Assembly (NCBI GenBank): GCA_001821395.1
Contig: MHLM01000004.1
Span: 64,001 to 128,000, forward strand
DNA from: Candidatus Lloydbacteria bacterium RIFCSPHIGHO2_02_FULL_50_18
GTDB taxonomy: Bacteria > Patescibacteriota > Minisyncoccia > Phycocordibacterales > UBA6899
DNA length: 64,000 bases
Reading direction: 5' to 3'
Made by a program: the position numbers and the translations under genes. How positions within the stretch are numbered: position 1 is the first letter of the stretch; each line of letters opens with the position of its first letter. Positions 2,378 to 63,799 of the stretch are shown here, piece after piece. The notes beneath the pieces are model-generated. The model was not told the origin of the DNA, searched no databases, and saw nothing but the letters and a program-made list of their open reading frames with translations.

Positions 2378-2445
2378 CTCTCCTCGGCACCACGGAGAGT
2401 ACTTCCATTTTTCTAAGTGGATGACCACTAAGAAAAATTGGTCGC
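2378..2445 (+). repeat. Repeat family R1, copy 1 (about 68 bp, contains a 14-bp hairpin ATTTTTCTAAGTGG/CCACTAAGAAAAAT)
   Basis: About 85% identical to 61781..61843, and in reverse orientation to 13304..13373. Confidence 0.7.
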
Positions 2446-3325: not shown

Positions 3326-3444
3326 TATTTTCGCGCCTCACTTTGTTGTAAGGCAGCGCACTTATGCCCCAGCGACTCGGTCAACATATATGAATATGTC
3401 TTCCTTGTCGCTTTCCCCGCGCCTCGTGATGCATCGAAAATATT
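3324..3444. repeat. Repeat family R2 copy 1 (core 3366..3428) bounded by a perfect 10-bp inverted repeat AATATTTTCG/CGAAAATATT
   Basis: The core is about 85% identical to 37514..37580. The flanking inverted repeat is specific to this locus. Confidence 0.6.
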
Positions 3445-3695
3445 CGAGAATATTTCCTGCATGGCTTCGCTCTTTATCCAAAATCTTAAAGAATGATACA
3501 TAGAACTTCAACCAACACTGACACTAGAGGACGCGTTGCGCCTCGTGATGTGACCAATTTTTCTCAGCGGTACTCCGCTTTAGAAAAATGAAATGCCCTC
3601 TGTGGTACATCAAAAATATTTCGGCCGGCATATTGACATAATCAGTTATTTTCATAGGATGAGTATTGGAAGAGTTTGAAAAGGAGAATTGACCA

Positions 3696-7234: not shown

Positions 7235-9130
7235 ATGATTCAAGAGACCGCTCTTACTATTATGAAAACGGGGGCGAATGTATTCCTCACGGGGGAGCCC
7301 GGGAGCGGTAAAACGCATACCGTAAACGCATATATCCGCTACCTCCGCGAGCACAACGTCAATCCTTCGATCACTGCTTCAACGGGTATCGCCGCGACGC
7401 ACGTCGGCGGGATGACCATTCATTCATGGAGCGGTATCGGCATCAAGCGTGCGCTCACCGAATATGACCTCGATGCGCTGTCCTCGAACGAAGGACTTGT
7501 GAAGCGTATCGCCAATGCAAAGGTGCTTATCATCGATGAGATATCGATGCTCGACGGCAACACGCTGGTCATGGTGGAGGCGGTCACGCGAACGCTTCGT
7601 CGCAAGCACGAGCCTTTCGGCGGACTGCAGATAATTTTCGTCGGCGATTTCTTTCAGCTGCCTCCCATCGCGGACCGGGCAAGCGGTGTTCGTGCGCAGT
7701 TTTGTTTCGAATCAACAGCATGGCGAGTGGCGAATCCCATAGTGTGCTATCTCTCCGAGCAGCACCGTCAGGAAGACACCGCGTTTCTCTCTACGCTTGG
7801 CGCCATTCGCCGCGGAGAGCTCGAGGATAGCGTCTTTGAATATATCGGCGAGAGGCACGTGCTCCCAGGTGAGCATCCACACGACATTCCGCAGCTCTAT
7901 ACGCACAACATTGATGTCGACAAAAAGAATACGGAAGAGCTCGCAAAACTTGAAACGGAAGAAAAGGTCTTTCTCATGAGCACGAAGGGGACGAGCAATC
8001 GCGTGGAGCAGCTGATCAAGGGCTGTCTTTCACCCGAGGAACTGGTGTTGAAAGAAGGCGCATCGGTGATGTTCACCAAAAATAATTTTGAAAACGGCTA
8101 TGTGAACGGCACATTGGGGACGGTGGTGGGATTCGACGAGGACAATGGTTTTCCAATTGTTGAAACATCGGGCGGAGAAAATATTACCGCGCTTCCTTCC
8201 GAATGGGCCGTTGATGATTCTGGGAAAGTGCTCGCCACCATCACTCAGGTACCGCTCCGACTCGCGTGGGCTATTACCGTGCACAAGAGCCAGGGGATGA
8301 GCCTTGATGCCGCGACGATGGATCTCTCGCGCGCATTTGAATACGGGCAAGGGTATGTGGCACTCTCTCGTGTACGCGCATTCTCGGGATTGCACATCCT
8401 CGGCATCAATCAGCGCGCATTCGAGGTGCACCCTCTTGTGCTTGAGCGCGACCTCGCGTTTCACGAGCGTTCGGATGAAGCGGAGGCGGGGTTTCTCGAC
8501 ATGTCGGACGCCGACCTCCGGAAGTTACACGAGAACTTTTTACTCGCCATTGGAGGGAATCTGGCGAAAAAAGAAATCATTGCCAAGGCATTCGGTGTTC
8601 CAAAACTGAGTACGTATGAAGAAACGCTCGCGCTCCTCAGCCCCGGGATGACGCTCGCCGCGATTGCCAAGCGTCGGGACGTGACCGAGGGGACGATCGT
8701 GGGCCATATCGAAGAACTCGCGCTACTCGGAAAGCTCCCGTCGATAGACATCGCCGCCTTTGCCGAGCTTCCTGCGTCGGTGGTGAAGGAGATAACGCAA
8801 ACGATCGAGACGATCGGAGGAGAATTTCTCAAGCCGCTCTACCTTGAATTGGATGAACGTTATTCTTATGAAACGATCCGTCTTGTTCGATTCGGAGCGG
8901 GCATTGCTCCGAAGCAAAAAGACGCCGTCGTTGCGAAAAAAGAAAAGGTAAAAAAGGTGTCACATGAAAAACCCGCAAAGCTCGGAGCGAAGTGGGGAAA
9001 GGAAGAGGAAGAACGACTCACAAAAATGTTCAAAGAGGGAAAGAAGACGAAGGACATCGCACAGACACTTGAACGGCAGTCGGGGGGTATCCGTGCTCGT
9101 TTGAAGAAGCTGGGGCTGATAAAAAAATAG
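7235..9130 (+). CDS. PIF1/RecD-family ATP-dependent DNA helicase with C-terminal HTH-like domains
   Basis: Walker A GEPGSGKT, Walker B LIIDEISM, the QLPPI motif and VHKSQG. The C-terminal roughly 190 aa carry HTH-like segments. Confidence 0.75.
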   Translation: MIQETALTIMKTGANVFLTGEPGSGKTHTVNAYIRYLREHNVNPSITASTGIAATHVGGMTIHSWSGIGIKRALTEYDLDALSSNEGLVKRIANAKVLIIDEISMLDGNTLVMVEAVTRTLRRKHEPFGGLQIIFVGDFFQLPPIADRASGVRAQFCFESTAWRVANPIVCYLSEQHRQEDTAFLSTLGAIRRGELEDSVFEYIGERHVLPGEHPHDIPQLYTHNIDVDKKNTEELAKLETEEKVFLMSTKGTSNRVEQLIKGCLSPEELVLKEGASVMFTKNNFENGYVNGTLGTVVGFDEDNGFPIVETSGGENITALPSEWAVDDSGKVLATITQVPLRLAWAITVHKSQGMSLDAATMDLSRAFEYGQGYVALSRVRAFSGLHILGINQRAFEVHPLVLERDLAFHERSDEAEAGFLDMSDADLRKLHENFLLAIGGNLAKKEIIAKAFGVPKLSTYEETLALLSPGMTLAAIAKRRDVTEGTIVGHIEELALLGKLPSIDIAAFAELPASVVKEITQTIETIGGEFLKPLYLELDERYSYETIRLVRFGAGIAPKQKDAVVAKKEKVKKVSHEKPAKLGAKWGKEEEERLTKMFKEGKKTKDIAQTLERQSGGIRARLKKLGLIKK

Positions 9131-9184
9131 ACAAAAATTTGAAAGCGAGAGGTATTTGACAAGTGCGATAAACTACTGCAGGAT
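9070..9184 (+). repeat. 115-bp direct repeat, copy A (last 61 nt of the helicase CDS plus the downstream TTGACA-containing region)
   Basis: About 90% identical to 10906..11020. Contains TTGACA at 9156..9161. Confidence 0.8.
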
Positions 9185-10905: not shown

Positions 10906-11020
10906 TGAACGCCAGTCGGGAGGTATTCGCTCTCGTTTGAAAAAGCTGGGGCTGATAAAAAAAAGACATACATTTGAAGGCAAGGAGGTATTTGACAAGT
11001 GCGATAAACTACTGCAGGAT
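10906..11020 (+). repeat. 115-bp direct repeat, copy B (contains an out-of-context fragment of the helicase C-terminal coding sequence)
   Basis: Translates to QSGGIRSRLKKLGLIKK, which matches the helicase tail. TTGACA at 10992..10997. Confidence 0.8.
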
Positions 11021-12941: not shown

Positions 12942-13012
12942 TGCGGGTTCGTCTAATGGTAGGACATCGCCCTCTGGAGGCGAGTATTGGGGTTCGAGTC
13001 CCTGACCCGCAG
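12942..13012 (+). tRNA. tRNA-Gln (anticodon CTG)
   Basis: U1:A72 acceptor stem TGCGGGT/ACCCGCA, D-arm GTCT..GGAC, anticodon stem TCGCC/GGCGA with loop CTCTGGA, T-loop TTCGAGT, and discriminator G. CCA is not encoded. Confidence 0.8.
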
Positions 13013-13018
13013 CAAATG

Positions 13019-13046
13019 AAAACACCCCTTTTAATGGGGGTGTTTT
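13019..13046 (+). terminator. Hairpin terminator after tRNA-Gln
   Basis: AAAACACCCC-ttttaa-TGGGGGTGTTTT. Confidence 0.6.
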
Positions 13047-13060
13047 CATTTGCGAGGAGA

Positions 13061-13082
13061 GGAAGCCATCTGCATGGCTTCC
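13061..13082. repeat. 22-bp perfect palindrome GGAAGCCATCTGCATGGCTTCC, copy 1, embedded in an inverted copy of the tRNA-Gln 3' half
   Basis: Identical 22-mer at 61685..61706. Flanked by TTTGCG and GGCAGGGACTCGAA, which match the reverse complement of the tRNA-Gln T-arm and acceptor 3' strand. Confidence 0.8.
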
Positions 13083-13165
13083 GGCAGGGACTCGAAGCCG
13101 TTCTCCCATATTTTCGAGACATTCTTATGTTGAGAAAATAGGAAACGGGTACTGACGCAGTAGGC

Positions 13166-13189
13166 GTCGAGATTCCCTGACCCGCAGCA
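13166..13189 (+). repeat. Direct repeat of the tRNA-Gln 3' end (16 nt exact: TCCCTGACCCGCAGCA), att-like
   Basis: Identical to 12999..13014. Located 160 bp downstream of the tRNA. Confidence 0.8.
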
Positions 13190-13236
13190 GCCGCACAAAA
13201 CCACTCTGTATGGAGTGGTTTTGTTTTGCGGTTGCT

Positions 13237-13255
13237 CGCGGGTCAGGGACTCGAA
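13237..13255 (-). repeat. Inverted copy of the tRNA-Gln 3' end (CGCGGGTCAGGGACTCGAA), forming a roughly 35-bp imperfect hairpin with 13174..13209
   Basis: Reverse complement of TTCGAGTCCCTGACCCGCG. Confidence 0.75.
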
Positions 13256-13303
13256 AGACGGAGGCGGTCTACGCCGCCACTTTCCTAAGTGCGGTGTCGC
13301 CGA

Positions 13304-13373
13304 GCGACATTGTTTTCTTATGAGTAAGCGAGTTAGAAAACAAGAAGTACTCTTGTGGTGCCGGGGTCGAGAG
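13304..13373 (-). repeat. Repeat family R1, copy 3 (reverse orientation), flanked by a 9-bp inverted repeat CCTAAGTGC/GCACTTAGG
   Basis: The reverse complement aligns with 2378..2445: TTTTCTTA..TTAGAAAA..AAGTACTCT..GTGGTGCCG. Confidence 0.65.
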
Positions 13374-13547
13374 CACTTAGGCTTTTGGCTGCCTTGCGCC
13401 AAAATATTTAGTGACTCGTGATCAAGTTTGACCCGTAGACATGTCGTGCTCTTATGATGCGCGTTCTTTTTTAAAAAATATTTTGAGAACAAAAAGAAGC
13501 CTATTTTGTGGTTAAAAAAACCGCAAGCCTTTACTTGCGGTGATATT

Positions 13548-14979: not shown

Positions 14980-15278
14980 ATAATTATGTTTATTACTAAT
15001 GTAATATATACTATACGTAAAATATATATTACACAAGCGCTATTGCGGATAACTTGCATTACGGGTAAAAGTTTCACTGCGGATATTGAATGCTAAGTCA
15101 GGAGATCGTTTTGGGCGGTCTTCCGGGGTGCCTCTTCGTGAGACCCTGAAAGGTAGTTTGTAGGGCAATGCGTCGTCTTCACTCCATCTTTTTCGCCTCT
15201 AATATTTATGCTTCTTCTAACTTAAATAGGTTCCAGTTTGTTCCTGACGCGCAGTATTTTTTTTGGTATGCTCATTTT

Positions 15279-15605
15279 ATGAAGATAGTAAATCCAAGAG
15301 TCGTCCCTGATGTAGCTCAAAAATATATCATCGCCAAGATTTTCAATAGCGATGAACTTCTGCTTTGGGGCGATCCAGAAATCGAATGGCATAAGGACAT
15401 TGCAGAAGAAATGGGTGACGCAGGCCTCGTTGTTGAATGGGTAAGGGGAGGAGGAAGATTGAAATTCGTGACTGATTCGAAAACTATTTATGTCTGGGGT
15501 AAAAGTAGTATGTATGGAGCCGCGTCATTTCGGGAAGCGAAGAACATTTTGAGGATCGCTTATTCTGACTATGACATTCTTAATGAGATCCCTCCAGAAG
15601 AATAG
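15279..15605 (+). CDS. Hypothetical protein
   Basis: ORF only. The start is ambiguous (15168 or 15279). Confidence 0.3.
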   Translation: MKIVNPRVVPDVAQKYIIAKIFNSDELLLWGDPEIEWHKDIAEEMGDAGLVVEWVRGGGRLKFVTDSKTIYVWGKSSMYGAASFREAKNILRIAYSDYDILNEIPPEE

Positions 15606-15684: not shown

Positions 15685-15990
15685 TTATGAAAAATCTCGT
15701 TTCCCTTCCCAGGGGATACCCCCGTAGTCCAATAATAGTTCTTCACCAGATCGAATATCTCTTGAGGAGATAAAATAAAATTTATCTCCATTTTGTAACA
15801 GCCCTATGTTGGGATCTTGTGAATGATTTATTTTCTCTCCGAGGCTCGTTCTCGCATAATCCACATCAGGATTTCCCGTGGTGCTAATTCTTTTGAATCC
15901 TAACCCGATATTCTCACCGCAGACGATATTATCTCTAGTGAAAACTCCATGCCCCGCAATATTTGATCCCTTTATTTCGAGGTTGACCAT
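15685..15990 (-). CDS. SET-domain protein (putative protein lysine methyltransferase), 101 aa
   Basis: NHSQDPN (an NHSCxPN-like motif) and ELLLDYG (an ELxxDY motif). Confidence 0.65.
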   Translation of the reverse strand: MVNLEIKGSNIAGHGVFTRDNIVCGENIGLGFKRISTTGNPDVDYARTSLGEKINHSQDPNIGLLQNGDKFYFISSRDIRSGEELLLDYGGIPWEGKRDFS

Positions 15991-29181: not shown

Positions 29182-29644
29182 AACAGATCTCCTTAATGGT
29201 GAACAACGTTGAACTCTGCCCCATTGTTTATCACCTCTCTATTCCCGTGTCAAACGTTATGGCAAAATAAGCCGTACGATGTCCGGATAAATGAATGACG
29301 CTTTACGAGTAAATTATTGGCGCGTACCATTGTCTCTATGTTATCATCATTTTTGTCGTGGGGGGGGGCTCGATGGCGACGCAAAGATCGCTCAGTGGAA
29401 AAAACAGGTGGAAGGATTTATGCCTATCATTTCCGGCGCACGCATGGAAGAGGATTATCTCAATTTTGCTTTTCTGCAAAAAATCAGCACTCCCGCATCG
29501 GGAAAAGCATCTGCATAGCGGTTTCGGTCGGTATGTACTCGGTCATTTTAGTTGCATAATGAGTGCGCGCAAGTGCCTTCTTGCTTGGAATTGGCCGAAT
29601 GGGGTGGTACAGTTAACCCGTAGTTAATTACATAATAAAAAGAT

Positions 29645-29980
29645 ATGGCAGCAAAAAAAGTAGCAGCAAAAAAGGCAGTCGCTAAAAAAGCAGTAGCAAA
29701 AAAGGCGGTCGCAAAGAAACCTGCAGCAAAAAAGGTCAATTCCGCATTTATGAAACCAATGACGATCAGCGCCGAGCTTGCTCTTGTCGTCGGAAAAGGT
29801 CCGATGCCTCGTTCAGAGGTCGTGAAGAAGCTCTGGGTTTATATCAAGAAGCATGATCTTCAGGATGCAAAAAATAAGCGCAATATCAACGGCGATGCGG
29901 CATTGGTTGCGGTATTCGGCGGAAAGAAGACCGTCAACATGTTTGAAATGACGAAGCTTGTGTCGAAACATCTTTCATAA
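29645..29980 (+). CDS. SWIB/MDM2-domain protein with an N-terminal Lys/Ala-rich histone-H1-like tail
   Basis: AAKKAVAKK repeats followed by ...ELALVVGKGPMPRSEVVKKLWVYIKKHDLQDAKNKRNINGD...MFEMTKLVSKHL. Confidence 0.75.
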   Translation: MAAKKVAAKKAVAKKAVAKKAVAKKPAAKKVNSAFMKPMTISAELALVVGKGPMPRSEVVKKLWVYIKKHDLQDAKNKRNINGDAALVAVFGGKKTVNMFEMTKLVSKHLS

Positions 29981-37470: not shown

Positions 37471-37475
37471 AATTT

Positions 37476-37599
37476 AAATTCAGTTCACTACCCCTATCTG
37501 CTTTGTTGCGGGGGCCCCTGCGACGCGGTCACCATATAAGAATATGTTTTCCTTGCCGCTTTCCCCGCGCCTCGCGTATAGGGGCATTGAACTGAATTT
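37476..37599. repeat. Repeat family R2 copy 2 (core 37514..37580) enclosed by a 22-bp inverted repeat AAATTCAGTTCACTACCCCTAT/ATAGGGGCATTGAACTGAATTT
   Basis: The core is about 85% identical to 3366..3428. The flanking inverted repeat (20 of 22 bp) differs in sequence from the one at copy 1. Confidence 0.6.
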
Positions 37600-37671
37600 A
37601 TGATAGATTATAGCGTATTTTTTAGTATTCCACTTCTCCATCGGGTAAAAATCCATGTATAATGCCATCCT

Positions 37672-40706: not shown

Positions 40707-42557
40707 GTGAACCATAAGATGATCCTGCGGGCAGTTACCGTTTCTCCACGGAGGGAATTCATTGTCGCGCTCCTGTTGCTTGCGGGGCTTTTTGACGCAT
40801 ACGTATTATCGGGTGCACTGCATCTACTCCTGCCTACCGCGATCCTGGGGGCTATCATTCCGTTTCAGAAAGCATGGGCGGGGGTCCGGAGAAAGACGAT
40901 AACGATCGAAGCATTCAATTTTCTTGCGGTCATTGCTTCGTTCGTGACCGGAGAGATCACCTCCGCATCATTCATCGGACTGATGCTCACCTCCGCCGCA
41001 TATCTTGATTGGTACACGGAGTCGCGCGCCACGAATGCGGTCGAGGAGTTGCTCAAATTGAAACCCAACAAAGCATTTCGCGTGAACGGGGACCTCATCG
41101 AAGAAGTTCCCTCGGAGCGTGTCGTTGTCGGCGATGTGCTTGTCGTCAAGAACGGAGAACGTATTCCCGTTGACGGAGTGATCATTTTCGGCGAGGCACT
41201 CGTGAATGAGTCATCACTCTCGGGAGAGTCCCGTCCAATCGAGAAAGCAATAGGTGACGAGGTTTTCTCGGGTACGCTTTCAGAGACGGGCGTGATCAAG
41301 ATGCGTGCCACGAAGGTGGGGAGTGATTCAACGATCGAGCGTATGGTAAAGCTGATCGAAGGCGCCGCAAAACAAAAATCAAAAGCGCAGCGGTTAGCTG
41401 ATCGCTTCGCAGGGATGTTCCTTCCGGTTGTCCTCGTGGCCGGTATCGCCACCTATTTTTTGACACACAATATCTCTATGGTAGTCGCATTCTTCCTTGT
41501 CGTTTGCGCCGACGACATCGCTGTTTCGATCCCGCTTGCCGTCACCGCAAGTCTTGGGCGCGCGGCAAAGCACGGGGTGATTGTGAAAGGGGGAGAATGG
41601 CTCGACGCGCTTGCGAAAGTAAAGATCATCGTGTTCGACAAGACCGGAACACTCACGTACGGAGATTTTCGTCTTGCGGAGTCGCATATTGCGGAAGGTG
41701 TCGCTTCGCCCAATTTTTGGAGATTTGTCGGGATAACGGAAAAATTCTCTGAGCATCCCGTTGGACGAGCTATTTTCAAAGAAGCAAAAAAGTATGCGGA
41801 AGTCATTTCCGATCCGGATGAAGTAATCGTGTATAAGGGTAGCGGCGTGCGCGCGAGGGTAGACGGGCATGATGTCGTCATTGGAAACGAAAAAGTGGTC
41901 AGTGAGGCGGGATTATCGCTCACTTCGGCCGTTGAGCAGCGTTTCGCCGAATATCGCACGTCCGGGAATACCGCAATGATCGTCTTCGTCGATCGTGTCT
42001 ATTGGGGCATACTGGCAATCACTGATACGCCACGTGAGGGCGCACGGGGGAATATCGCCAAATTGAATGCAATGGGTATCCGCACGATCATGCTGACGGG
42101 AGACAATGAAACGGTTGCTAGGGAGGTGTCGAGCAAACTTGGAATCACTGAATTCCGAGCCGGGGTAAGTCCGGAAGGAAAACTGTTTGAGATAGAGACC
42201 CTCTCTAAGGAAGGAGTGCTCGCAATGGTCGGTGATGGGATCAATGATGCTCCGGCACTTGCGCGTGCGAACGTGGGGATCGCGATGGGGGCTGGTGGTA
42301 CTGCGGTCGCCGTTGAGGCTGCCAATGTGGTCATCCTGACCGATGAGTTGGATCGCATACCCGAGATGATCTTGCTTGCGCGGCGTACCGTCTCGGTCGT
42401 CAATTACAATATGGGAATTTGGTTCATCACGAATGCGATCGGCATCACGCTCGTCTTTGCCGGTATCTTGGGACCCGCACTTGCCGCATTCTACAACTTT
42501 GCAACCGATTTCCTTCCGCTTATCAATTCACTCCGCCTGTTCCGTCGCAGCCGGTAA
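40707..42557 (+). CDS. P-type cation-transporting ATPase (no N-terminal metal-binding domain; CPx replaced by CAD)
   Basis: DKTGTLT phosphorylation motif, GDGINDAP and TGES-like SGES motifs. Confidence 0.85.
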   Translation: MNHKMILRAVTVSPRREFIVALLLLAGLFDAYVLSGALHLLLPTAILGAIIPFQKAWAGVRRKTITIEAFNFLAVIASFVTGEITSASFIGLMLTSAAYLDWYTESRATNAVEELLKLKPNKAFRVNGDLIEEVPSERVVVGDVLVVKNGERIPVDGVIIFGEALVNESSLSGESRPIEKAIGDEVFSGTLSETGVIKMRATKVGSDSTIERMVKLIEGAAKQKSKAQRLADRFAGMFLPVVLVAGIATYFLTHNISMVVAFFLVVCADDIAVSIPLAVTASLGRAAKHGVIVKGGEWLDALAKVKIIVFDKTGTLTYGDFRLAESHIAEGVASPNFWRFVGITEKFSEHPVGRAIFKEAKKYAEVISDPDEVIVYKGSGVRARVDGHDVVIGNEKVVSEAGLSLTSAVEQRFAEYRTSGNTAMIVFVDRVYWGILAITDTPREGARGNIAKLNAMGIRTIMLTGDNETVAREVSSKLGITEFRAGVSPEGKLFEIETLSKEGVLAMVGDGINDAPALARANVGIAMGAGGTAVAVEAANVVILTDELDRIPEMILLARRTVSVVNYNMGIWFITNAIGITLVFAGILGPALAAFYNFATDFLPLINSLRLFRRSR

Positions 42558-61551: not shown

Positions 61552-61626
61552 TCCGGTGTAGCTCAGTGGTAGAGCAGTGCGCTGTTAACGCATTGGTCGC
61601 AGGTTCGAATCCTGCCGCCGGAGCCA
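61552..61626 (+). tRNA. tRNA-Asn (anticodon GTT), CCA encoded
   Basis: U1:A72 acceptor stem TCCGGTG/CGCCGGA, anticodon loop CTGTTAA, T-loop TTCGAAT and a 3' CCA. Confidence 0.85.
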
Positions 61627-61639
61627 ACAAATTTCGTGG

Positions 61640-61668
61640 AAAAGACCCGTATGGGGTCTTTTTCTTTT
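61640..61668 (+). terminator. Hairpin terminator after tRNA-Asn
   Basis: GACCC-gtat-GGGGTC followed by TTTTTCTTTT. Confidence 0.65.
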
Positions 61669-61669
61669 G

Positions 61670-61719
61670 TTGGCTCCGGGCGGAGGAAGCCATCTGCATG
61701 GCTTCCGAAAGGATTCGAA
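61670..61719. repeat. Inverted copy of the tRNA-Asn 3' half interrupted by palindrome GGAAGCCATCTGCATGGCTTCC (61685..61706)
   Basis: TTGGCTCCGGGCGG and AGGATTCGAA match the reverse complement of the tRNA 3' strand. The insert is flanked by AGGA on both sides. Confidence 0.8.
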
Positions 61720-61780
61720 AAGCTTGGTGTTGTTTTGTCTTCAAAACCACCAAGGTGTACCGTCCATGTAATGGAAGAAA

Positions 61781-61843
61781 CTCCTGCACCACAAGAGTAC
61801 TTCATTTTTCTAAGACGGAGTACCATTAAGAAAAATTGGTCGC
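61781..61843 (+). repeat. Repeat family R1, copy 2
   Basis: About 85% identical to 2378..2445. Confidence 0.7.
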
Positions 61844-61854
61844 CGCCGGAGCCA
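61842..61854 (+). repeat. Direct repeat of the tRNA-Asn 3' end (GCCGCCGGAGCCA, 13 nt exact), att-like, abutting R1
   Basis: Identical to 61614..61626. Confidence 0.75.
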
Positions 61855-61958
61855 GAGAATGACCACTATAAATAGTGGTCATTGTTGTGTGTGGAGGATT
61901 CAAACTTTCAGAATATTTGATATAATTTGATAGTTACTATTCTCAATTTTTTAATGAC

Positions 61959-63557
61959 ATGAAAAAATACATATCCATAGCTTTCATTATTGTTGTGGTT
62001 ATTGGTGTTTTTTTATTTTTTCTTGGTAGTTCTACCAACAATAATCTCATTGGAGATAGCGTTAGGATGACCCGCTTACTCGTCAATGGGGTACCTTCGA
62101 GCGGTGGTTTTGTGAATGTGACTTATTTGGAAAGTGAGGAAAAATATCCTGTGATAAATATTGCGGTGGACTTAAACAAAGACGGTGTTATCAAGTCTTA
62201 CGAGGTTGATGGGGGTATTCAGGAAGAATGGCTTGTCACGAATATGTATGCCCAAGTGGTTGGTGGGTCAAAAAATAATTACTCTATTTCTATAAAAGAC
62301 ACAAAACTTGATAGTAAAACTGACCTGCCGGTGTATGTAGTCTTAAGTGAAAATGAGATAAAAGACTGGTCTGGTGAAAAAGTTTCCGGAGGTATATATA
62401 AAGAAATTTTATTATCCAAAATAGATACAATGGATTATGGATCACTGTATGCTCCGGATCCGGAAGGTGAGCGGGCCGGTGGGTCACCATTGGGTTCTGT
62501 TCTGTCCAATAAGGTTTTTGCATATGATGCCGTTAATGAATACAGGACAGATGTTCCTGACATTGATCAGGGGTACAACGAGTGTGTCCCCACGTCCATC
62601 GCCAATTCACTTTTATGGTTAGCTGATAAATATAAGTTTCTCGATAAATTGCCAAAGGGGGGTGATAAAGATTTAATCGCTGAGCTTAAGAGTGACTTAA
62701 AATGGACAAAGTATGGTGTTTTGCATAAAGACATTGTTCCCGGAATAAAAACTTTTATTAAGAGACATAAACTCTTGTTGGAAGCGCATCAAATAGGAGA
62801 AATTAGAGACGACGAAATCATGGCTAAAATAGCGGGGGAGCTTAAAAGGGGACAGGATGTTGAGGGTTGGCTGGAATATCGAGGATATTTTAAAAATGAT
62901 TCCTATCTGCGTAAGGGTGCTCACGTGGTTACGGTGGTTGGTGTTTGGACAAGTCCTCAAGGCACAAAATTTATCGGGTTAAATGATCCTCTGTCTCAAG
63001 GGGGTCATGCGACAGATATTTATGAACTCAGTGGAGTGCAGGTTCTCGATTATGCTTTTCAGGGTGATTATGAGACATATCTCATTTCCGCTTTTGCTGA
63101 GTCACCCATTTCTGAAGAGGAGGTTATGCCGTCTGTTACCATAGATAATTCAAGTATTAAATTAATAAAAGAAACTCATCCTTCCGGTGGAACCACGCGC
63201 ACTTGTTTGGTCACATTGTCAGGAACAGCTACCGGACCGGAGTGCAGTTATGTAACGCTTCAGGGTGGCAAACCTGGCACTGGGTCTACGATGGATATGA
63301 ATGGGGCGGAAAGTTGCCCAGATTGGTCATATTGGGGTACGAGTGGATTTTGTGTTCGTCATCTTAAGCAAAATAATACTACAGCATGGAGTGTTACTTT
63401 TGAGGCTTCTACGTATTGGGGTAAAACTGATTTAGATTTTAGTATAATGTTGGGGGCACCAAAACTGCCTCTCGAAGATCTTTATGGAGGAAATGTTTGT
63501 GCCTCAACTGAAACAGATCAAAAAATATACGATACAATATCTTTGGAGTGTAAGTAA
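61959..63557 (+). CDS. Secreted protein with a predicted papain-like (C39-like) cysteine peptidase domain, in an AT-rich island-like context
   Basis: Signal anchor. YNECVPTSIANSLLWL Cys motif and a GAHVVTVVGV His motif. Visibly lower G+C than the neighbouring genes. Confidence 0.45.
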   Translation: MKKYISIAFIIVVVIGVFLFFLGSSTNNNLIGDSVRMTRLLVNGVPSSGGFVNVTYLESEEKYPVINIAVDLNKDGVIKSYEVDGGIQEEWLVTNMYAQVVGGSKNNYSISIKDTKLDSKTDLPVYVVLSENEIKDWSGEKVSGGIYKEILLSKIDTMDYGSLYAPDPEGERAGGSPLGSVLSNKVFAYDAVNEYRTDVPDIDQGYNECVPTSIANSLLWLADKYKFLDKLPKGGDKDLIAELKSDLKWTKYGVLHKDIVPGIKTFIKRHKLLLEAHQIGEIRDDEIMAKIAGELKRGQDVEGWLEYRGYFKNDSYLRKGAHVVTVVGVWTSPQGTKFIGLNDPLSQGGHATDIYELSGVQVLDYAFQGDYETYLISAFAESPISEEEVMPSVTIDNSSIKLIKETHPSGGTTRTCLVTLSGTATGPECSYVTLQGGKPGTGSTMDMNGAESCPDWSYWGTSGFCVRHLKQNNTTAWSVTFEASTYWGKTDLDFSIMLGAPKLPLEDLYGGNVCASTETDQKIYDTISLECK

Positions 63558-63799
63558 TGTATAGCGGATAGAATTCCTTGAAGAACCGGACCTATTTGAA
63601 TAAAAGCAAAAGAAAAACACCGCGTTGAGGATGTTTTTCTTTTGTTGATGCTTCGTGCAGCGAGCGGAGCTCGCTGGCTGGAACCGAACACCGGAGTATA
63701 AATTTTCAGCAGAAAATATTACGAGGCGGTGCGCAGACCAAAATGTTGCGACGGCAATATTTTGCGTCGCAGGAGAAATTCCTGCCGCCGGAGTCTTTC

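What the first reader, a model, noticed from the sequence alone, without database searches (positions are those of the whole stretch)
12942..13400. tRNA-Gln locus with an att-like direct repeat and multiple inverted tRNA-end copies
Within 320 bp downstream of tRNA-Gln the elements occur in this order: a terminator hairpin, an inverted mimic of the tRNA 3' half split by a 22-bp palindrome (13061..13082), an exact 16-nt direct repeat of the tRNA 3' end (13174..13189), a second inverted copy (13237..13255), and an inverted R1 repeat flanked by 9-bp inverted repeats. The direct repeat and the second inverted copy are the two arms of a roughly 35-bp hairpin. A direct repeat of a tRNA 3' end is the classic footprint of integrase-mediated insertion. 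Here the intervening element is only about 160 bp, and the adjacent block (about 13.4-16 kb) looks lower in G+C. Possible explanations are a miniature or decayed integrative element, tandem integration scars, or a tRNA-targeting non-autonomous element.
Basis: seen in the sequence. Interest (0 to 1): 0.7.

Follow-up and report, generated by a model that had tools for sequence, protein, structure and literature searches.

The report
Miniature insertion modules stacked behind tRNA genes
The repeats behind tRNA-Gln are real: they are a stack of tiny, gene-less, hairpin-rich DNA insertions that recur behind other tRNA genes in this and related uncultured bacteria, are missing at the same site in a relative, and come with no recombinase gene nearby.

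Summary

- **Recurrence.** The window's only other tRNA, tRNA-Asn, has the same build and the same 22-bp palindrome (PAL). PAL also sits behind tRNA-Ser, -Tyr, -Arg and -Gln in related Patescibacteria, and behind one tRNA in a betaproteobacterial MAG. In each case its flanks match the local tRNA.
- **Source.** Candidatus Lloydbacteria RIFCSPHIGHO2_01_FULL_49_22.
- **Insertion polymorphism.** A related Lloydbacteria contig (L099) has the same tRNA-Gln locus without E1 (13014-13189) and without R1 (13305-13360). Both are therefore insertions. Gene order beyond the tRNA 3' end is lost between relatives.
- **Array structure.** Copies of the tRNA 3' end ("A") alternate in orientation: A–hairpin–A'–scaffold–A. 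Scaffold stems covary. Inverted copies always end at the T-loop.
- **What is missing.** No recombinase gene in the window's called genes and large ORFs. No match in Rfam, phage, plasmid or viral collections.
- **Best reading.** Non-autonomous integrative modules that target tRNA 3' ends and are moved in trans by site-specific recombination. That they are mobile is well supported. The enzyme, and the role of the inverted copy and PAL, are inferred.

The parts
12942..13013 (+). tRNA-Gln(CTG). Its 3' part, from the T-loop to the end (12993-13013), is the repeated unit 'A'.
13012..13053 (.). T1: a 17-bp hairpin/terminator that starts inside the last bases of the tRNA. Its sequence is specific to this locus.
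   Evidence: I3, (T1 differs completely from the T1 of the alpha element at tRNA-Tyr)
13054..13060 (.). 7-nt spacer (gaggaga) where the complement of the acceptor 3' strand would be expected. It is not complementary in this copy.
13061..13082 (.). PAL: conserved 9-bp-stem hairpin/palindrome GGAAGCCAT-N4-ATGGCTTCC. It sits at the T-stem/acceptor junction of the inverted copy.
   Evidence: (D7)
13085..13096 (-). Inverted copy of the tRNA-Gln T-loop plus T-stem 3' strand (CAGGGACTCGAA). It ends exactly at TCGAA.
   Evidence: I5/D6
13097..13173 (+). Alpha scaffold: long hairpin H2 (about 13100-13148, loop TCTT), GGGTAC (13147-13152), short hairpin H3 (13154-13168), end motif GAGAT (13169-13173).
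13174..13189 (+). Exact 16-nt direct repeat of the tRNA-Gln 3' end. This is the right boundary of module E1 (13014-13189).
13190..13235 (.). T2: hairpin/terminator. It is homologous to the terminator that directly follows tRNA-Gln in L099.
   Evidence: I2
13238..13255 (-). Second inverted copy of the tRNA 3' half. It is an exact 18-mer, contiguous, with no PAL.
   Evidence: I1
13256..13428 (+). Scaffold of the older module E2 ('epsilon'). It is shared with L099/L100.
13305..13360 (-). R1: an independent 56-nt hairpin insertion inside the E2 scaffold, absent from L099. Other copies are at 2389-2445 (+), 3552-3606 (-) and 61787-61842 (+).
13429..13438 (+). Decayed remnant (TGACCCGTAG) of the direct repeat that closes E2. 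L099 has a well-preserved 19-nt copy at the same place.
   Evidence: D2
61552..61626 (+). tRNA-Asn(GTT), head of a second array of the same kind.
61666..61719 (-). Inverted copy of the tRNA-Asn 3' end, split by the same PAL: anti-acceptor plus trailer 61666-61683, PAL 61685-61706, anti-T 61710-61719.
   Evidence: (D7, I9)
61720..61786 (+). Gamma scaffold (H2 with TCTT loop, GGTGTAC, H3), ending in ACTCCTG, the first part of a direct tRNA-Asn 3' copy.
61787..61842 (+). R1 copy that splits the direct repeat TCCTG|CCGCCGGAGCCA.
61843..61854 (+). Second part of the direct tRNA-Asn 3' copy (CCGCCGGAGCCA), followed by hairpin T2 at 61858-61883.
61892..61904 (-). Degenerate inverted copy that lacks the acceptor segment (TGGaGGATTCaAA).
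   Evidence: read from the sequence
61959..63557 (+). 532-aa ORF with no Pfam or PHROG match, lying between two copies of the tRNA-Asn 3' end. It is a candidate cargo gene.
63700..63793 (+). Delta-type right end. Read by eye, it resembles the right end of the 165-bp element at tRNA-Ser in L016. It includes a 28-nt copy of the tRNA-Asn T-arm and 3' end (63766-63793, 82%).
   Evidence: D8

Best explanation
The 3' flank of tRNA-Gln is an integration hotspot. It carries a tandem stack of miniature, gene-less, hairpin-rich modules from a family that targets the 3' ends of tRNA genes in Patescibacteria.

**Unit structure.** Each unit reads [A = tRNA 3' end from the T-loop on] – [T = its own terminator hairpin] – [A' = inverted copy of A, often split at the T-stem/acceptor junction by the conserved hairpin PAL] – [S = scaffold of two covarying hairpins, H2–G(G)TGTAC–H3, ending in ..CGARAT]. 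The next copy of A follows.

**This window.**
- E1 (13014-13189, alpha scaffold with PAL) is the most recent insertion.
- E2 (13190 to about 13438) is older and is shared with a relative.
- R1 (13305-13360) is a separate small hairpin element that landed inside E2.

**Proposed mechanism (inferred).** A circular or otherwise excised module recombines site-specifically with the tRNA gene, within the T-loop to 3'-end segment. The incoming unit supplies a replacement tRNA 3' end and a terminator, so the tRNA stays intact. The previous 3' end is pushed downstream and becomes the direct repeat. The recombinase is supplied in trans, because the modules and the whole 64-kb window encode none.

**Role of the inverted sites (inferred).** The alternating orientation of A and A' gives pairs of inverted sites, as in Xer-dependent dif modules. 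That would allow scaffolds and hairpins to reassort between tRNA loci.

**Shown:** the anatomy, recurrence at several tRNAs and in several genomes, flanks specific to the local tRNA, presence/absence polymorphism, structural covariation, and absence of a local recombinase gene.
**Inferred:** the recombination chemistry, the position of the crossover, and the roles of A' and PAL.

**How the confidence splits.** About 0.8 that these are discrete mobile insertion modules of a tRNA-targeting family. About 0.45 that the mechanism is classical double-strand site-specific recombination by a trans-acting recombinase. The single figure given is a compromise between the two.
For: 1. **Same architecture at the window's only other tRNA.** The PAL core 13061-13082 recurs exactly at 61685-61706 (D7, a 30-nt repeat at 93%). 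The inverted tRNA-Asn end, the direct copy and the hairpins follow the same order.
2. **Family members elsewhere.** They were found by a PAL pattern scan. In each, the sequence next to PAL matches the local tRNA: L016 Ser, L020 Tyr, L051 Arg, L071 Gln, L079/L093 Ser (a Betaproteobacteria MAG), L092/L094 Tyr.
3. **Same scaffold, different tRNA.** Alpha at Gln versus Tyr is 83% identical overall. The differences are concentrated in the terminator and the tRNA-derived segments. Beta at Arg versus Gln behaves the same way. A third alpha copy of Asn type lies at L095 12727-12916 and has a different hairpin at the PAL position.
4. **Empty sites.** L099/L100 have tRNA-Gln followed directly by the T2-like terminator, the inverted copy and the E2 scaffold. 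They have neither E1 nor R1.
5. **Hotspot behaviour.** Gene order is conserved on the TspO side and is different in every relative on the tRNA 3' side. L106 has a 5.25-kb island (Fic, AEP primase-helicase) between tRNA-Gln and a 30-nt repeat of its 3' part. The island's end motif GACCGAGAT resembles that of the small modules.
6. **Junctions are sharp.**
   - All inverted copies end at ..TCGAA, the complement of the start of the T-loop.
   - Direct-repeat identity starts inside the T-arm.
   - This is the pattern of class II (T-loop) tRNA integration sites such as Ms6 (PMC1762012).
   - It also fits the general rule that a regenerated tRNA plus a displaced fragment marks an island's ends (PMC4383910, abstract).
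7. **Hairpins are conserved as structures.** Among three alpha copies, 11 of 43 predicted pairs keep pairing through changes on both sides. Three of these are in the PAL stem.
8. **Controls.** Six tRNAs from unrelated loci have at most 9 of 16 inverted and 12 of 16 direct matches downstream. Most family members reach 13-16 of 16 on at least one of the two measures; L071 and L092 reach only 11.
9. **Local palindrome units.** In L020 and L104 each inverted copy matches its own adjacent direct copy, and not the resident tRNA where the two differ. So A–T–A' behaves as one inherited unit.
Against: - No integrase, transposase or other recombinase domain was found in the window's called genes and ORFs of at least about 110 aa, nor within 10 kb of either tRNA, nor in the L106 island. 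The enzyme is therefore hypothetical.
- A dsDNA circle of 140-220 bp is an implausible substrate for a classical integrase.
- Classical integration does not require or explain an inverted copy of the core, nor a conserved hairpin inserted into it.
- In L020 the displaced repeat carries a different tRNA-Tyr acceptor sequence from the resident gene. That is awkward for a simple model in which the old 3' end is pushed aside.
- No free or attP-form copy was found in viral contigs, phage records or plasmid records.
- The sample is small: about 15 modules. Most loci were found through PAL itself, so how common the family is remains unknown.
- The absence of E1 in L099 could be a precise loss rather than a gain in the window lineage.
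Confidence: 0.6

Rival explanations
1. The modules move as folded single strands. The long palindrome A–T–A', with PAL as a side branch, folds into a hairpin that mimics the double-stranded tRNA 3' end. It is then recombined with the tRNA gene by a host recombinase or HUH-type enzyme and fixed by replication. Known precedents are CTX-phage attP with XerCD and integron attC sites.
For: - A–T1–A' folds as a three-way junction with PAL as a side arm at both tRNAs of the window (-47.5 and -45.6 kcal/mol, z = -12.8 and -10.0).
- The modules carry no recombinase gene.
- Module sizes of 140-220 nt suit single-stranded DNA better than double-stranded circles.
- Hairpin stems covary.
- The tRNA-sense strand folds better than its complement in 10 of 12 modules.
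- CTX-type integration by a single strand exchange between folded single-stranded DNA and the chromosome is documented (abstract of PMC3442271, seen).
Against: - No enzyme candidate. The only Y1 transposase seen (L106 1061-1513) has its own, different hairpins and lies outside the island.
- G·T versus A·C counts show no strand bias: 21 versus 17.
- The acceptor part of A' is unpaired or missing in several copies (window E1, L016, L079), which weakens the idea of a mimic of the target duplex.
- Modules without PAL exist (L104, window E2).
Confidence: 0.17
2. The modules are genes for a structured small RNA, for example a tRNA-like decoy or an antisense partner of the neighbouring tRNA. The segments that match the tRNA would be functional pairing or mimicry elements. 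The presence/absence differences would reflect gain and loss of RNA genes.
For: - Conserved two-hairpin scaffold with compensatory changes, conserved loop and linker motifs (TCTT, GGTGTAC, GTA).
- The tRNA-sense strand is more stable in 10 of 12 modules.
- The anti-acceptor and anti-T segments can pair with the direct copy to give an acceptor/T-like helix.
- In L156 the same scaffold lies in the 5' leader of tRNA-Asn and would be transcribed there.
Against: - Each module is bracketed by strong hairpin terminators, and no promoter-like site lies inside it.
- No Rfam family matches, even at permissive thresholds.
- The acceptor-like closing helix is absent or degenerate in several copies, including the one in this finding.
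- There is no excess of G·U pairs on either strand.
- Stacking in tandem and the sharp tRNA-derived repeats are properties of insertions.
Confidence: 0.1
3. The small modules are not mobile themselves. They are decayed scars: the attachment-site arms of larger islands whose interiors were deleted. Alternatively, they are inverted duplications produced by fold-back or template switching at terminator hairpins.
For: - Larger islands flanked by copies of the tRNA 3' end exist at the same sites (L106, 5.25 kb; the window tRNA-Asn array with a 532-aa ORF and DUF817).
- Several repeats are degenerate (13429-13438; L071; L094).
- The inverted copies continue the terminator stem, as fold-back synthesis would produce.
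Against: - The same scaffold with the same internal boundaries recurs at different tRNAs and in different genomes at 78-83% identity. Random deletions would not reproduce this.
- PAL sits at the same junction in every tRNA type.
- E1 has an exact 16-nt repeat, and its edges coincide with an empty site.
Confidence: 0.1

Closest known systems
tRNA-targeting genomic islands and prophages of the T-loop class (class II) of tyrosine integrases, e.g. mycobacteriophage Ms6; Islander-type islands
   Same: - The tRNA is intact, and a displaced copy of its 3' part lies downstream as a direct repeat.
- Identity starts in the T-arm and runs to the 3' end.
- The incoming element restores the gene.
- Successive elements stack in tandem.
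- The site is hypervariable between relatives (PMC1762012; PMC4383910 abstract).
   Different: - The modules are 110-220 bp and non-coding.
- No integrase lies in or near them.
- Each carries an inverted copy of the core, often split by a conserved hairpin.
- One scaffold family is found at five different tRNA species.
Tycheposon islands of Prochlorococcus
   Same: - Islands next to tRNA genes contain several partial tRNA copies from successive integrations.
- Degenerate remnants and cargo lie between the repeats (10.1101/2020.12.28.424599).
   Different: - Tycheposons are multi-kilobase elements with tyrosine recombinase genes.
- I saw no report of inverted tRNA copies or a PAL-like hairpin in the passages I read.
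dif modules (pdif/Xer) of Acinetobacter plasmids, and elements that integrate using the host Xer recombinases (IMEX)
   Same: - Short recombination sites alternate in orientation along an array.
- Modules are bounded by inversely oriented sites and are gained or lost in pairs.
- Some modules contain no gene.
- The recombinase is not encoded by the module (PMC13141974).
   Different: - The repeated site here is the 3' end of a tRNA gene, not a 28-bp XerC/XerD site.
- The arrays are chromosomal and anchored on a functional tRNA.
- Involvement of Xer is untested.
Non-autonomous att-flanked elements (CIMEs) and MITEs
   Same: They are small, gene-less, multi-copy, presumably mobilised in trans, and rich in hairpins.
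   Different: - Their 'terminal inverted repeats' are copies of whichever tRNA they sit next to. They are not a fixed transposase-binding sequence.
- The repeat is 16-90 nt of tRNA, not a short target-site duplication.

Membership tests
tRNA-integrating genomic island / integrative element (tyrosine integrase) | Intact target tRNA plus a displaced 3' fragment in direct orientation at the far end | tested here: met
   Exact 16-nt repeat at 13174-13189. The same is seen at tRNA-Asn and in L016, L020, L051, L071, L079 and L104.
tRNA-integrating genomic island / integrative element (tyrosine integrase) | Integrase gene carried by the element, usually next to one att site | tested here: not met
   No Phage_integrase, resolvase or transposase domain in the window's called genes and ORFs of at least about 110 aa, nor in the flanks. 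The modules have no credible ORF.
tRNA-integrating genomic island / integrative element (tyrosine integrase) | Presence/absence polymorphism with edges at the repeats | tested here: met
   L099/L100 lack E1. The tRNA is joined directly to the T2-like terminator.
tRNA-integrating genomic island / integrative element (tyrosine integrase) | Crossover at a defined sublocation (anticodon loop, T-loop or 3' end) | tested here: inconclusive
   Repeat identity begins in the T-arm, and the inverted copies end at the start of the T-loop. The actual point of strand exchange cannot be read from sequence.
MITE | Fixed terminal inverted repeats and a short target-site duplication of constant length | tested here: not met
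   The inverted arms change with the tRNA. The repeats range from about 9 to about 90 nt.
IS200/IS605-derived palindromic elements / REP elements | Similar subterminal hairpins at both ends, no target duplication, and a Y1 transposase in the genome | tested here: not met
   PAL and H3 are unrelated in sequence. Long direct repeats are present. The one Y1_Tnp gene seen (in L106) has different hairpins. The rest of the source genome could not be searched.
Xer-dependent dif modules / IMEX | Sites made of XerC and XerD binding arms around a 6-bp spacer, alternating in orientation | tested here: inconclusive
   Alternating orientation is met. Whether the tRNA-end site is bound by Xer proteins, and what the dif site of this organism is, could not be tested. 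A XerC/D-like gene exists in the relative L051.
Integron cassette / attC | attC with conserved R''/R' core sites and an intI gene with attI nearby | not tested
   No integrase domain was found in the window's called genes and ORFs of at least about 110 aa. No formal attC model was run. The palindromes are tRNA-derived.
Described RNA family (Rfam 15) | Match to a covariance model at or near its gathering score | tested here: not met
   Only tRNA reaches threshold. Permissive scans give only generic hairpin (miRNA-model) noise.
Casposon | Cas1 casposase, terminal inverted repeats, 14-15-bp duplication at a tRNA 3' end | tested here: not met
   No Cas1 or PolB domains in the window's called genes and ORFs of at least about 110 aa. 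The repeat length is variable. The family definition is from my own knowledge.

The most novel reading that the evidence does not exclude
These are a previously undescribed class of mobile DNA: gene-less or single-gene modules that use the 3' end of any tRNA gene (T-loop arm plus acceptor strand) as a portable recombination site. The site is laid out in alternating orientation like dif modules. The modules would be moved by an unidentified recombinase that reads the universal T-loop sequence and requires identity in the acceptor segment. PAL-type hairpins and R1 would mark the cleavage junction between T-stem and acceptor strand. Such a system would be retargetable to any tRNA. It is present in Patescibacteria and in at least one proteobacterial MAG.
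Probability: 0.25. Interest if true: 0.85.

Novelty: new variant of a known kind. Interest (0 to 1): 0.66.

Why it matters
- **Mobile DNA in reduced genomes.** Patescibacteria (candidate phyla radiation) have tiny genomes and few recognised mobile elements. A family of miniature modules that repeatedly remodels the 3' flanks, and in one relative the 5' flank, of tRNA genes would be a main source of local genome variation there. It also marks where foreign genes enter: the low-G+C block after tRNA-Gln, and the 532-aa ORF and DUF817 gene inside the tRNA-Asn array.
- **A possibly unknown mechanism.** Three features fit no described tRNA-integration system I could find: the lack of a cognate integrase, the alternating direct and inverted tRNA-end sites, and the conserved junction hairpin. 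They point to either an unrecognised recombinase or a host-enzyme-dependent mechanism.
- **Possible use.** If the site logic is 'universal T-loop arm plus programmable acceptor segment', it could be of interest as a retargetable integration system.
- **Practical consequences.** These arrays break metagenome assemblies. Six contigs end in or near the tRNA. They can also mislead tRNA and island callers.

Tried and rejected
- **Public collections.**
  - The exact PAL pattern found nothing in IMG/VR viral contigs or JGI metagenome contigs.
  - A looser pattern of PAL plus inverted T-loop found 3 metagenome loci and no viral ones.
  - Scaffold 16-mers and degenerate PAL in viral contigs gave only chance hits inside genes.
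  - blastn of 13040-13260 against phage and plasmid records gave no match.
  - Of the 81 genome hits to the degenerate PAL, about 75 are unrelated terminators or coding palindromes.
- **Rfam.** Scans at gathering and permissive thresholds on the window and six related loci found only tRNA.
- **Recombinase hunt.**
  - Pfam was run on the window's larger ORFs (about 110 aa or more, overlaps removed) outside the regions already covered by precomputed gene tables.
  - Pfam and PHROGs were run on the small ORFs next to the arrays and on the L106 and L099 island ORFs. None is a recombinase.
  - The two similar-sized ORFs next to the arrays in L099 and L106 are unrelated to each other.
- **Far-side repeat.** I searched for a tRNA-Gln repeat that would delimit the low-G+C block. 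No convincing far-side copy was found: the best hits with up to 3 mismatches in 15 nt look like chance, one of them inside an ORF.
- **Strand of the structure.** The energy bias favours the tRNA-sense strand. G·U counts do not. I treat this as unresolved.
- **Ideas considered and dropped.**
  - Split or permuted tRNA gene, or tRNA intron: the inverted copy complements the 3' strand even at wobble pairs, so it is not a copy of the 5' strand.
  - Primer-binding site of a retroelement: the complement runs past the CCA end into the trailer.
  - IS110 bridge RNA, TnpB guide RNA, retron, group II intron: no associated protein, and the wrong repeat geometry.
- **More distant TspO relatives** (P0041, P0060) are not next to tRNA-Gln, so they gave no further test.
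Full report
**1. Check of the observation**

ARAGORN and Rfam place tRNA-Gln(CTG) at 12942-13013 on the + strand.

| Feature | Coordinates | Evidence |
|---|---|---|
| Terminator hairpin, 17 bp | 13012-13028 / 13037-13053 | I3, |
| Palindrome GGAAGCCATCTGCATGGCTTCC | 13061-13082 | |
| 15-nt inverted match to the tRNA T-arm | 13085-13099 | I5 |
| Exact 16-nt direct repeat of the tRNA 3' end | 13174-13189 | |
| Exact 18-nt inverted copy | 13238-13255 | I1 |
| Inverted R1 | 13305-13360 | |

- For the 18-mer with up to 3 mismatches, 0.05 matches are expected by chance; two are found.
- The direct repeat and the second inverted copy form a hairpin of about 39 bp.
- G+C falls to about 0.40 between 13.7 and 16 kb.
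- One correction: in the first inverted copy only the T-arm part and the trailer part mirror the tRNA. The 7 nt where the acceptor complement should be do not match.
- The region is identical in four independent assemblies.
- The source is Candidatus Lloydbacteria bacterium RIFCSPHIGHO2_01_FULL_49_22, GCA_001818945.1.

**2. The locus is not unique**

The window has only one other tRNA, tRNA-Asn at 61552-61626, and it has the same build (D7, I9, D8):
- a terminator;
- an inverted copy of the tRNA-Asn 3' end (61666-61683);
- the same palindrome (PAL, 61685-61706);
- an inverted T-loop (61710-61719);
- a two-hairpin scaffold;
- a direct copy of the tRNA-Asn 3' end, split by R1 (61780-61786 | R1 | 61843-61854);
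- a second terminator;
- a further T-arm/3'-end copy at 63766-63793.

Both A–terminator–A' regions fold as three-way junctions with PAL as a side arm (z = -12.8 and -10.0).

The array continues past the window end. L095 12727-12916 holds another alpha-type module of Asn type. At the PAL position it has a different hairpin (PAL''), and R1 sits at the identical junction.

**3. Family members elsewhere**

- A scan of species-representative genomes with GGAAGCCAT-N4-ATGGCTTCC gave 81 hits. Most are unrelated palindromes.
- The hits where an inverted T-loop directly follows PAL are all next to a tRNA gene:
  - tRNA-Ser in a Paceibacteria MAG (L016);
  - tRNA-Tyr and tRNA-Arg in a Lloydbacteria MAG (L020, L051);
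  - tRNA-Gln in MAG GFS_5529 (L071);
  - tRNA-Ser in a Betaproteobacteria MAG (L079).
- A metagenome scan added a tRNA-Tyr locus (L092/L094).
- In every case the sequence flanking PAL is the reverse complement of the local tRNA's T-loop and T-stem 3' strand, and usually also of its acceptor strand and trailer. A direct copy of the same tRNA's 3' end closes the module 110-220 nt downstream.
- Six tRNAs from unrelated loci show nothing comparable.

**4. Modules versus tRNA-derived parts**

- The alpha scaffold of this finding (13061-13176) recurs behind tRNA-Tyr in L094. Long stretches are 100% identical. The terminator hairpin, the acceptor complement, a few bases of the anti-T segment and the direct repeat follow the local tRNA instead.
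- The beta scaffold behaves the same way at tRNA-Arg (L051) and tRNA-Gln (L071).
- Most scaffolds share one plan..TCGAA – long AT-rich hairpin H2 (loop TCTT/TCCT) – G(G)TGTAC – short hairpin H3 (loop ..GTA..) – CGARAT – tRNA T-stem 3' strand.
- Among three alpha copies, 11 of 43 predicted pairs are kept through changes on both sides. Three of these are in the PAL stem.
- Inverted copies come in three forms:
  - contiguous (window 13238-13255; L104);
  - split by a PAL-type hairpin;
  - lacking exactly the acceptor segment (window 61892-61904; L094 second module).
- All of them end at ..TCGAA, the complement of the start of the T-loop.

**5. Presence/absence polymorphism**

I used the TspO gene next to tRNA-Gln as an anchor and fetched the orthologous locus from related Lloydbacteria.

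- **L099/L100** (TspO 84% identical): tRNA-Gln is followed directly by a terminator homologous to T2, a partly decayed inverted copy, and the same scaffold as window 13256-13428. There is no E1 (13014-13189) and no R1 (13305-13360). A well-preserved direct repeat closes the module where the window has only TGACCCGTAG at 13429-13438.
- **L104/L105** (78%): a different 110-nt module. Its inverted copy tracks the variant acceptor sequence of that genome's tRNA.
- **L102/L103/L106** (82%): another small module, followed by a 5.25-kb island (Fic, AEP primase-helicase, DUF3024) that ends in GACCGAGAT plus a 30-nt repeat of the tRNA-Gln 3' part.
- **Synteny:** conserved on the TspO side and lost on the tRNA 3' side in every comparison.
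- **L156** (neighbouring hydrolase protein 90% identical to the window's): a 186-nt module with the same H2–GGTGTAC–H3 scaffold sits on the 5' side of tRNA-Asn, next to a displaced copy of the tRNA 5' end. It is absent from the window.
- Six short contigs of the source population end inside or just after tRNA-Gln. This is compatible with heterogeneity within the population but does not prove it.

**6. What it is not**

- No Rfam family matches, even at permissive thresholds.
- No copy was found in viral contigs, phage records or plasmid records.
- No integrase, transposase, resolvase, Cas1 or Y1 transposase domain occurs in the window's called genes and ORFs of at least about 110 aa, nor in the flanks fetched.
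- An IS200-like Y1 transposase in L106 has its own, different hairpins and lies outside the island.
- A XerC/D-type recombinase lies 3.4 kb from tRNA-Arg in L051, on the 5' side and among ordinary-looking neighbour ORFs.
- The tRNA-sense strand folds more stably than its complement in 10 of 12 modules. G·U pair counts are balanced, 21 versus 17. The strand on which any single-stranded structure would act is therefore undecided.
- The modules are bracketed by hairpin terminators and contain no promoter-like site.

**7. Interpretation**

*Shown:* these are discrete insertions of a recurrent family that targets tRNA gene ends, stacked in tandem, at a site where gene content turns over between relatives.

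*Inferred:* they enter by site-specific recombination within the T-loop to 3'-end segment of the tRNA gene.
- The incoming unit supplies a new 3' end and terminator and displaces the old 3' end. Known tRNA-integrating elements do this (PMC4383910).
- T-loop-class integrases such as Ms6 use a 26-bp core running from the T-stem to the 3' end, and that core can be retargeted by editing it (PMC1762012).
- The enzyme must act in trans.

*New relative to that model:*
- the size of the modules;
- the lack of any integrase;
- the obligatory inverted copy, so that tRNA-end sites alternate in orientation (A–T–A'–S–A...);
- the hairpin at the T-stem/acceptor junction.

The alternation is formally the same as in Xer-dependent dif modules. 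There, sites alternate, modules are added in pairs, and some modules are empty (PMC13141974). It would allow scaffolds and terminators to reassort, as observed.

Two further observations suggest that the T-stem/acceptor junction is itself a cleavage or insertion point:
- PAL, PAL'' and R1 all sit there.
- Some inverted copies lack exactly the acceptor segment.

This is speculation from anatomy.

Rival readings cannot be excluded:
- a CTX- or integron-like mechanism using folded single-stranded DNA;
- a structured RNA;
- immobile scars.

They are weighed in the Rival explanations section.

**8. Novelty and score**

- Direct tRNA-end repeats at integration hotspots are textbook. Arrays of partial tRNAs are known, for example in tycheposons.
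- I found no description of gene-less modules with inverted tRNA-end copies and a conserved junction hairpin. I looked in Rfam, in the phage, plasmid and viral collections, and in seven full-text searches.
- I rate it a new variant of a known kind. There is a real but minority chance that it represents a new recombination system.

Noticed in passing
window 2389-2445 (+), 3552-3606 (-), 13305-13360 (-), 61787-61842 (+); L095 12850-12905 (+): R1 is a 56-nt hairpin element (consensus CACCACAAGAGTACTTCATTTTTCTAAG..TAAGAAAAATTGGTCG). Four of its five copies sit in similar target contexts (YCCYG|CYSGG). Two of them are at the identical position TCCTG|CCGC inside copies of the tRNA-Asn 3' end. Two other copies flank the ftsE-like ABC ATPase gene in inverted orientation.
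   Followed up: partly
window 61627-63793 and L095 11800-12920 (beyond the window end): The tRNA-Asn array spans about 3.3 kb. It has five or more direct or inverted copies of the tRNA 3' end and two protein genes between them: a 532-aa ORF with no family match, and DUF817. So modules can carry cargo.
   Followed up: partly
L156 1-349 (relative; neighbouring hydrolase 90% identical): tRNA-Asn has a 186-nt insertion on its 5' side. It consists of a displaced copy of the tRNA 5' end (TCCGGTGTAGCgGAGTGGTgGAG) and the same H2(TCTT)-GGTGTAC-H3 scaffold. The window lacks it. The contig ends inside the tRNA.
   Followed up: partly
L106 4572-9878: A 5.25-kb island (Fic, AEP-TOTE primase-helicase, DUF3024 and two ORFs without family) lies between tRNA-Gln and a 30-nt repeat of its 3' part. 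No recognisable integrase is present. Its end motif GACCGAGAT resembles that of the small modules.
   Followed up: partly
L079 / L093 (contig Ga0207076_1058, binned as Betaproteobacteria): The same PAL stem, followed by an inverted T-loop, lies behind tRNA-Ser(GCT). It is flanked by a direct repeat of about 90 nt that includes the tRNA end and its terminator. Either the family crosses phyla or the contig is misbinned.
   Followed up: no
window 12969-13092 (ends of contigs L005-L010): Six short contigs from different assemblies that carry the identical TspO gene all stop inside tRNA-Gln or at the inverted T-arm copy. This suggests a branch in the assembly graph, i.e. strain heterogeneity, at this point.
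   Followed up: no
window 3366-3426, 37514-37574, 41491-41511: Another 61-nt repeat (90% identical). At the second site it is flanked by 23-bp inverted repeats (37475-37497 / 37578-37600). It is possibly a separate MITE.
   Followed up: no
window 9070-9127 / 10906-10963 and 9149-9184 / 10985-11020: The 3' ends and downstream regions of two adjacent, unrelated genes (Pif1-type helicase and BT1 transporter) share a 58-nt (90%) segment and a 36-nt (100%) segment, 1836 bp apart.
   Followed up: no
window 13.5-17.7 kb: The low-G+C block after the array encodes small ORFs without family matches, an HTH protein, an ECF sigma factor, and two domains that are mainly eukaryotic: Janus/Ocnus (15168-15605) and SET (15685-15990). 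A second SET gene lies next to the tRNA-Asn locus.
   Followed up: no
window 29638-29735: Tandem 15-nt repeats encode a Lys/Ala-rich (AAKK-type) low-complexity stretch in a small ORF (29645-29980).
   Followed up: no
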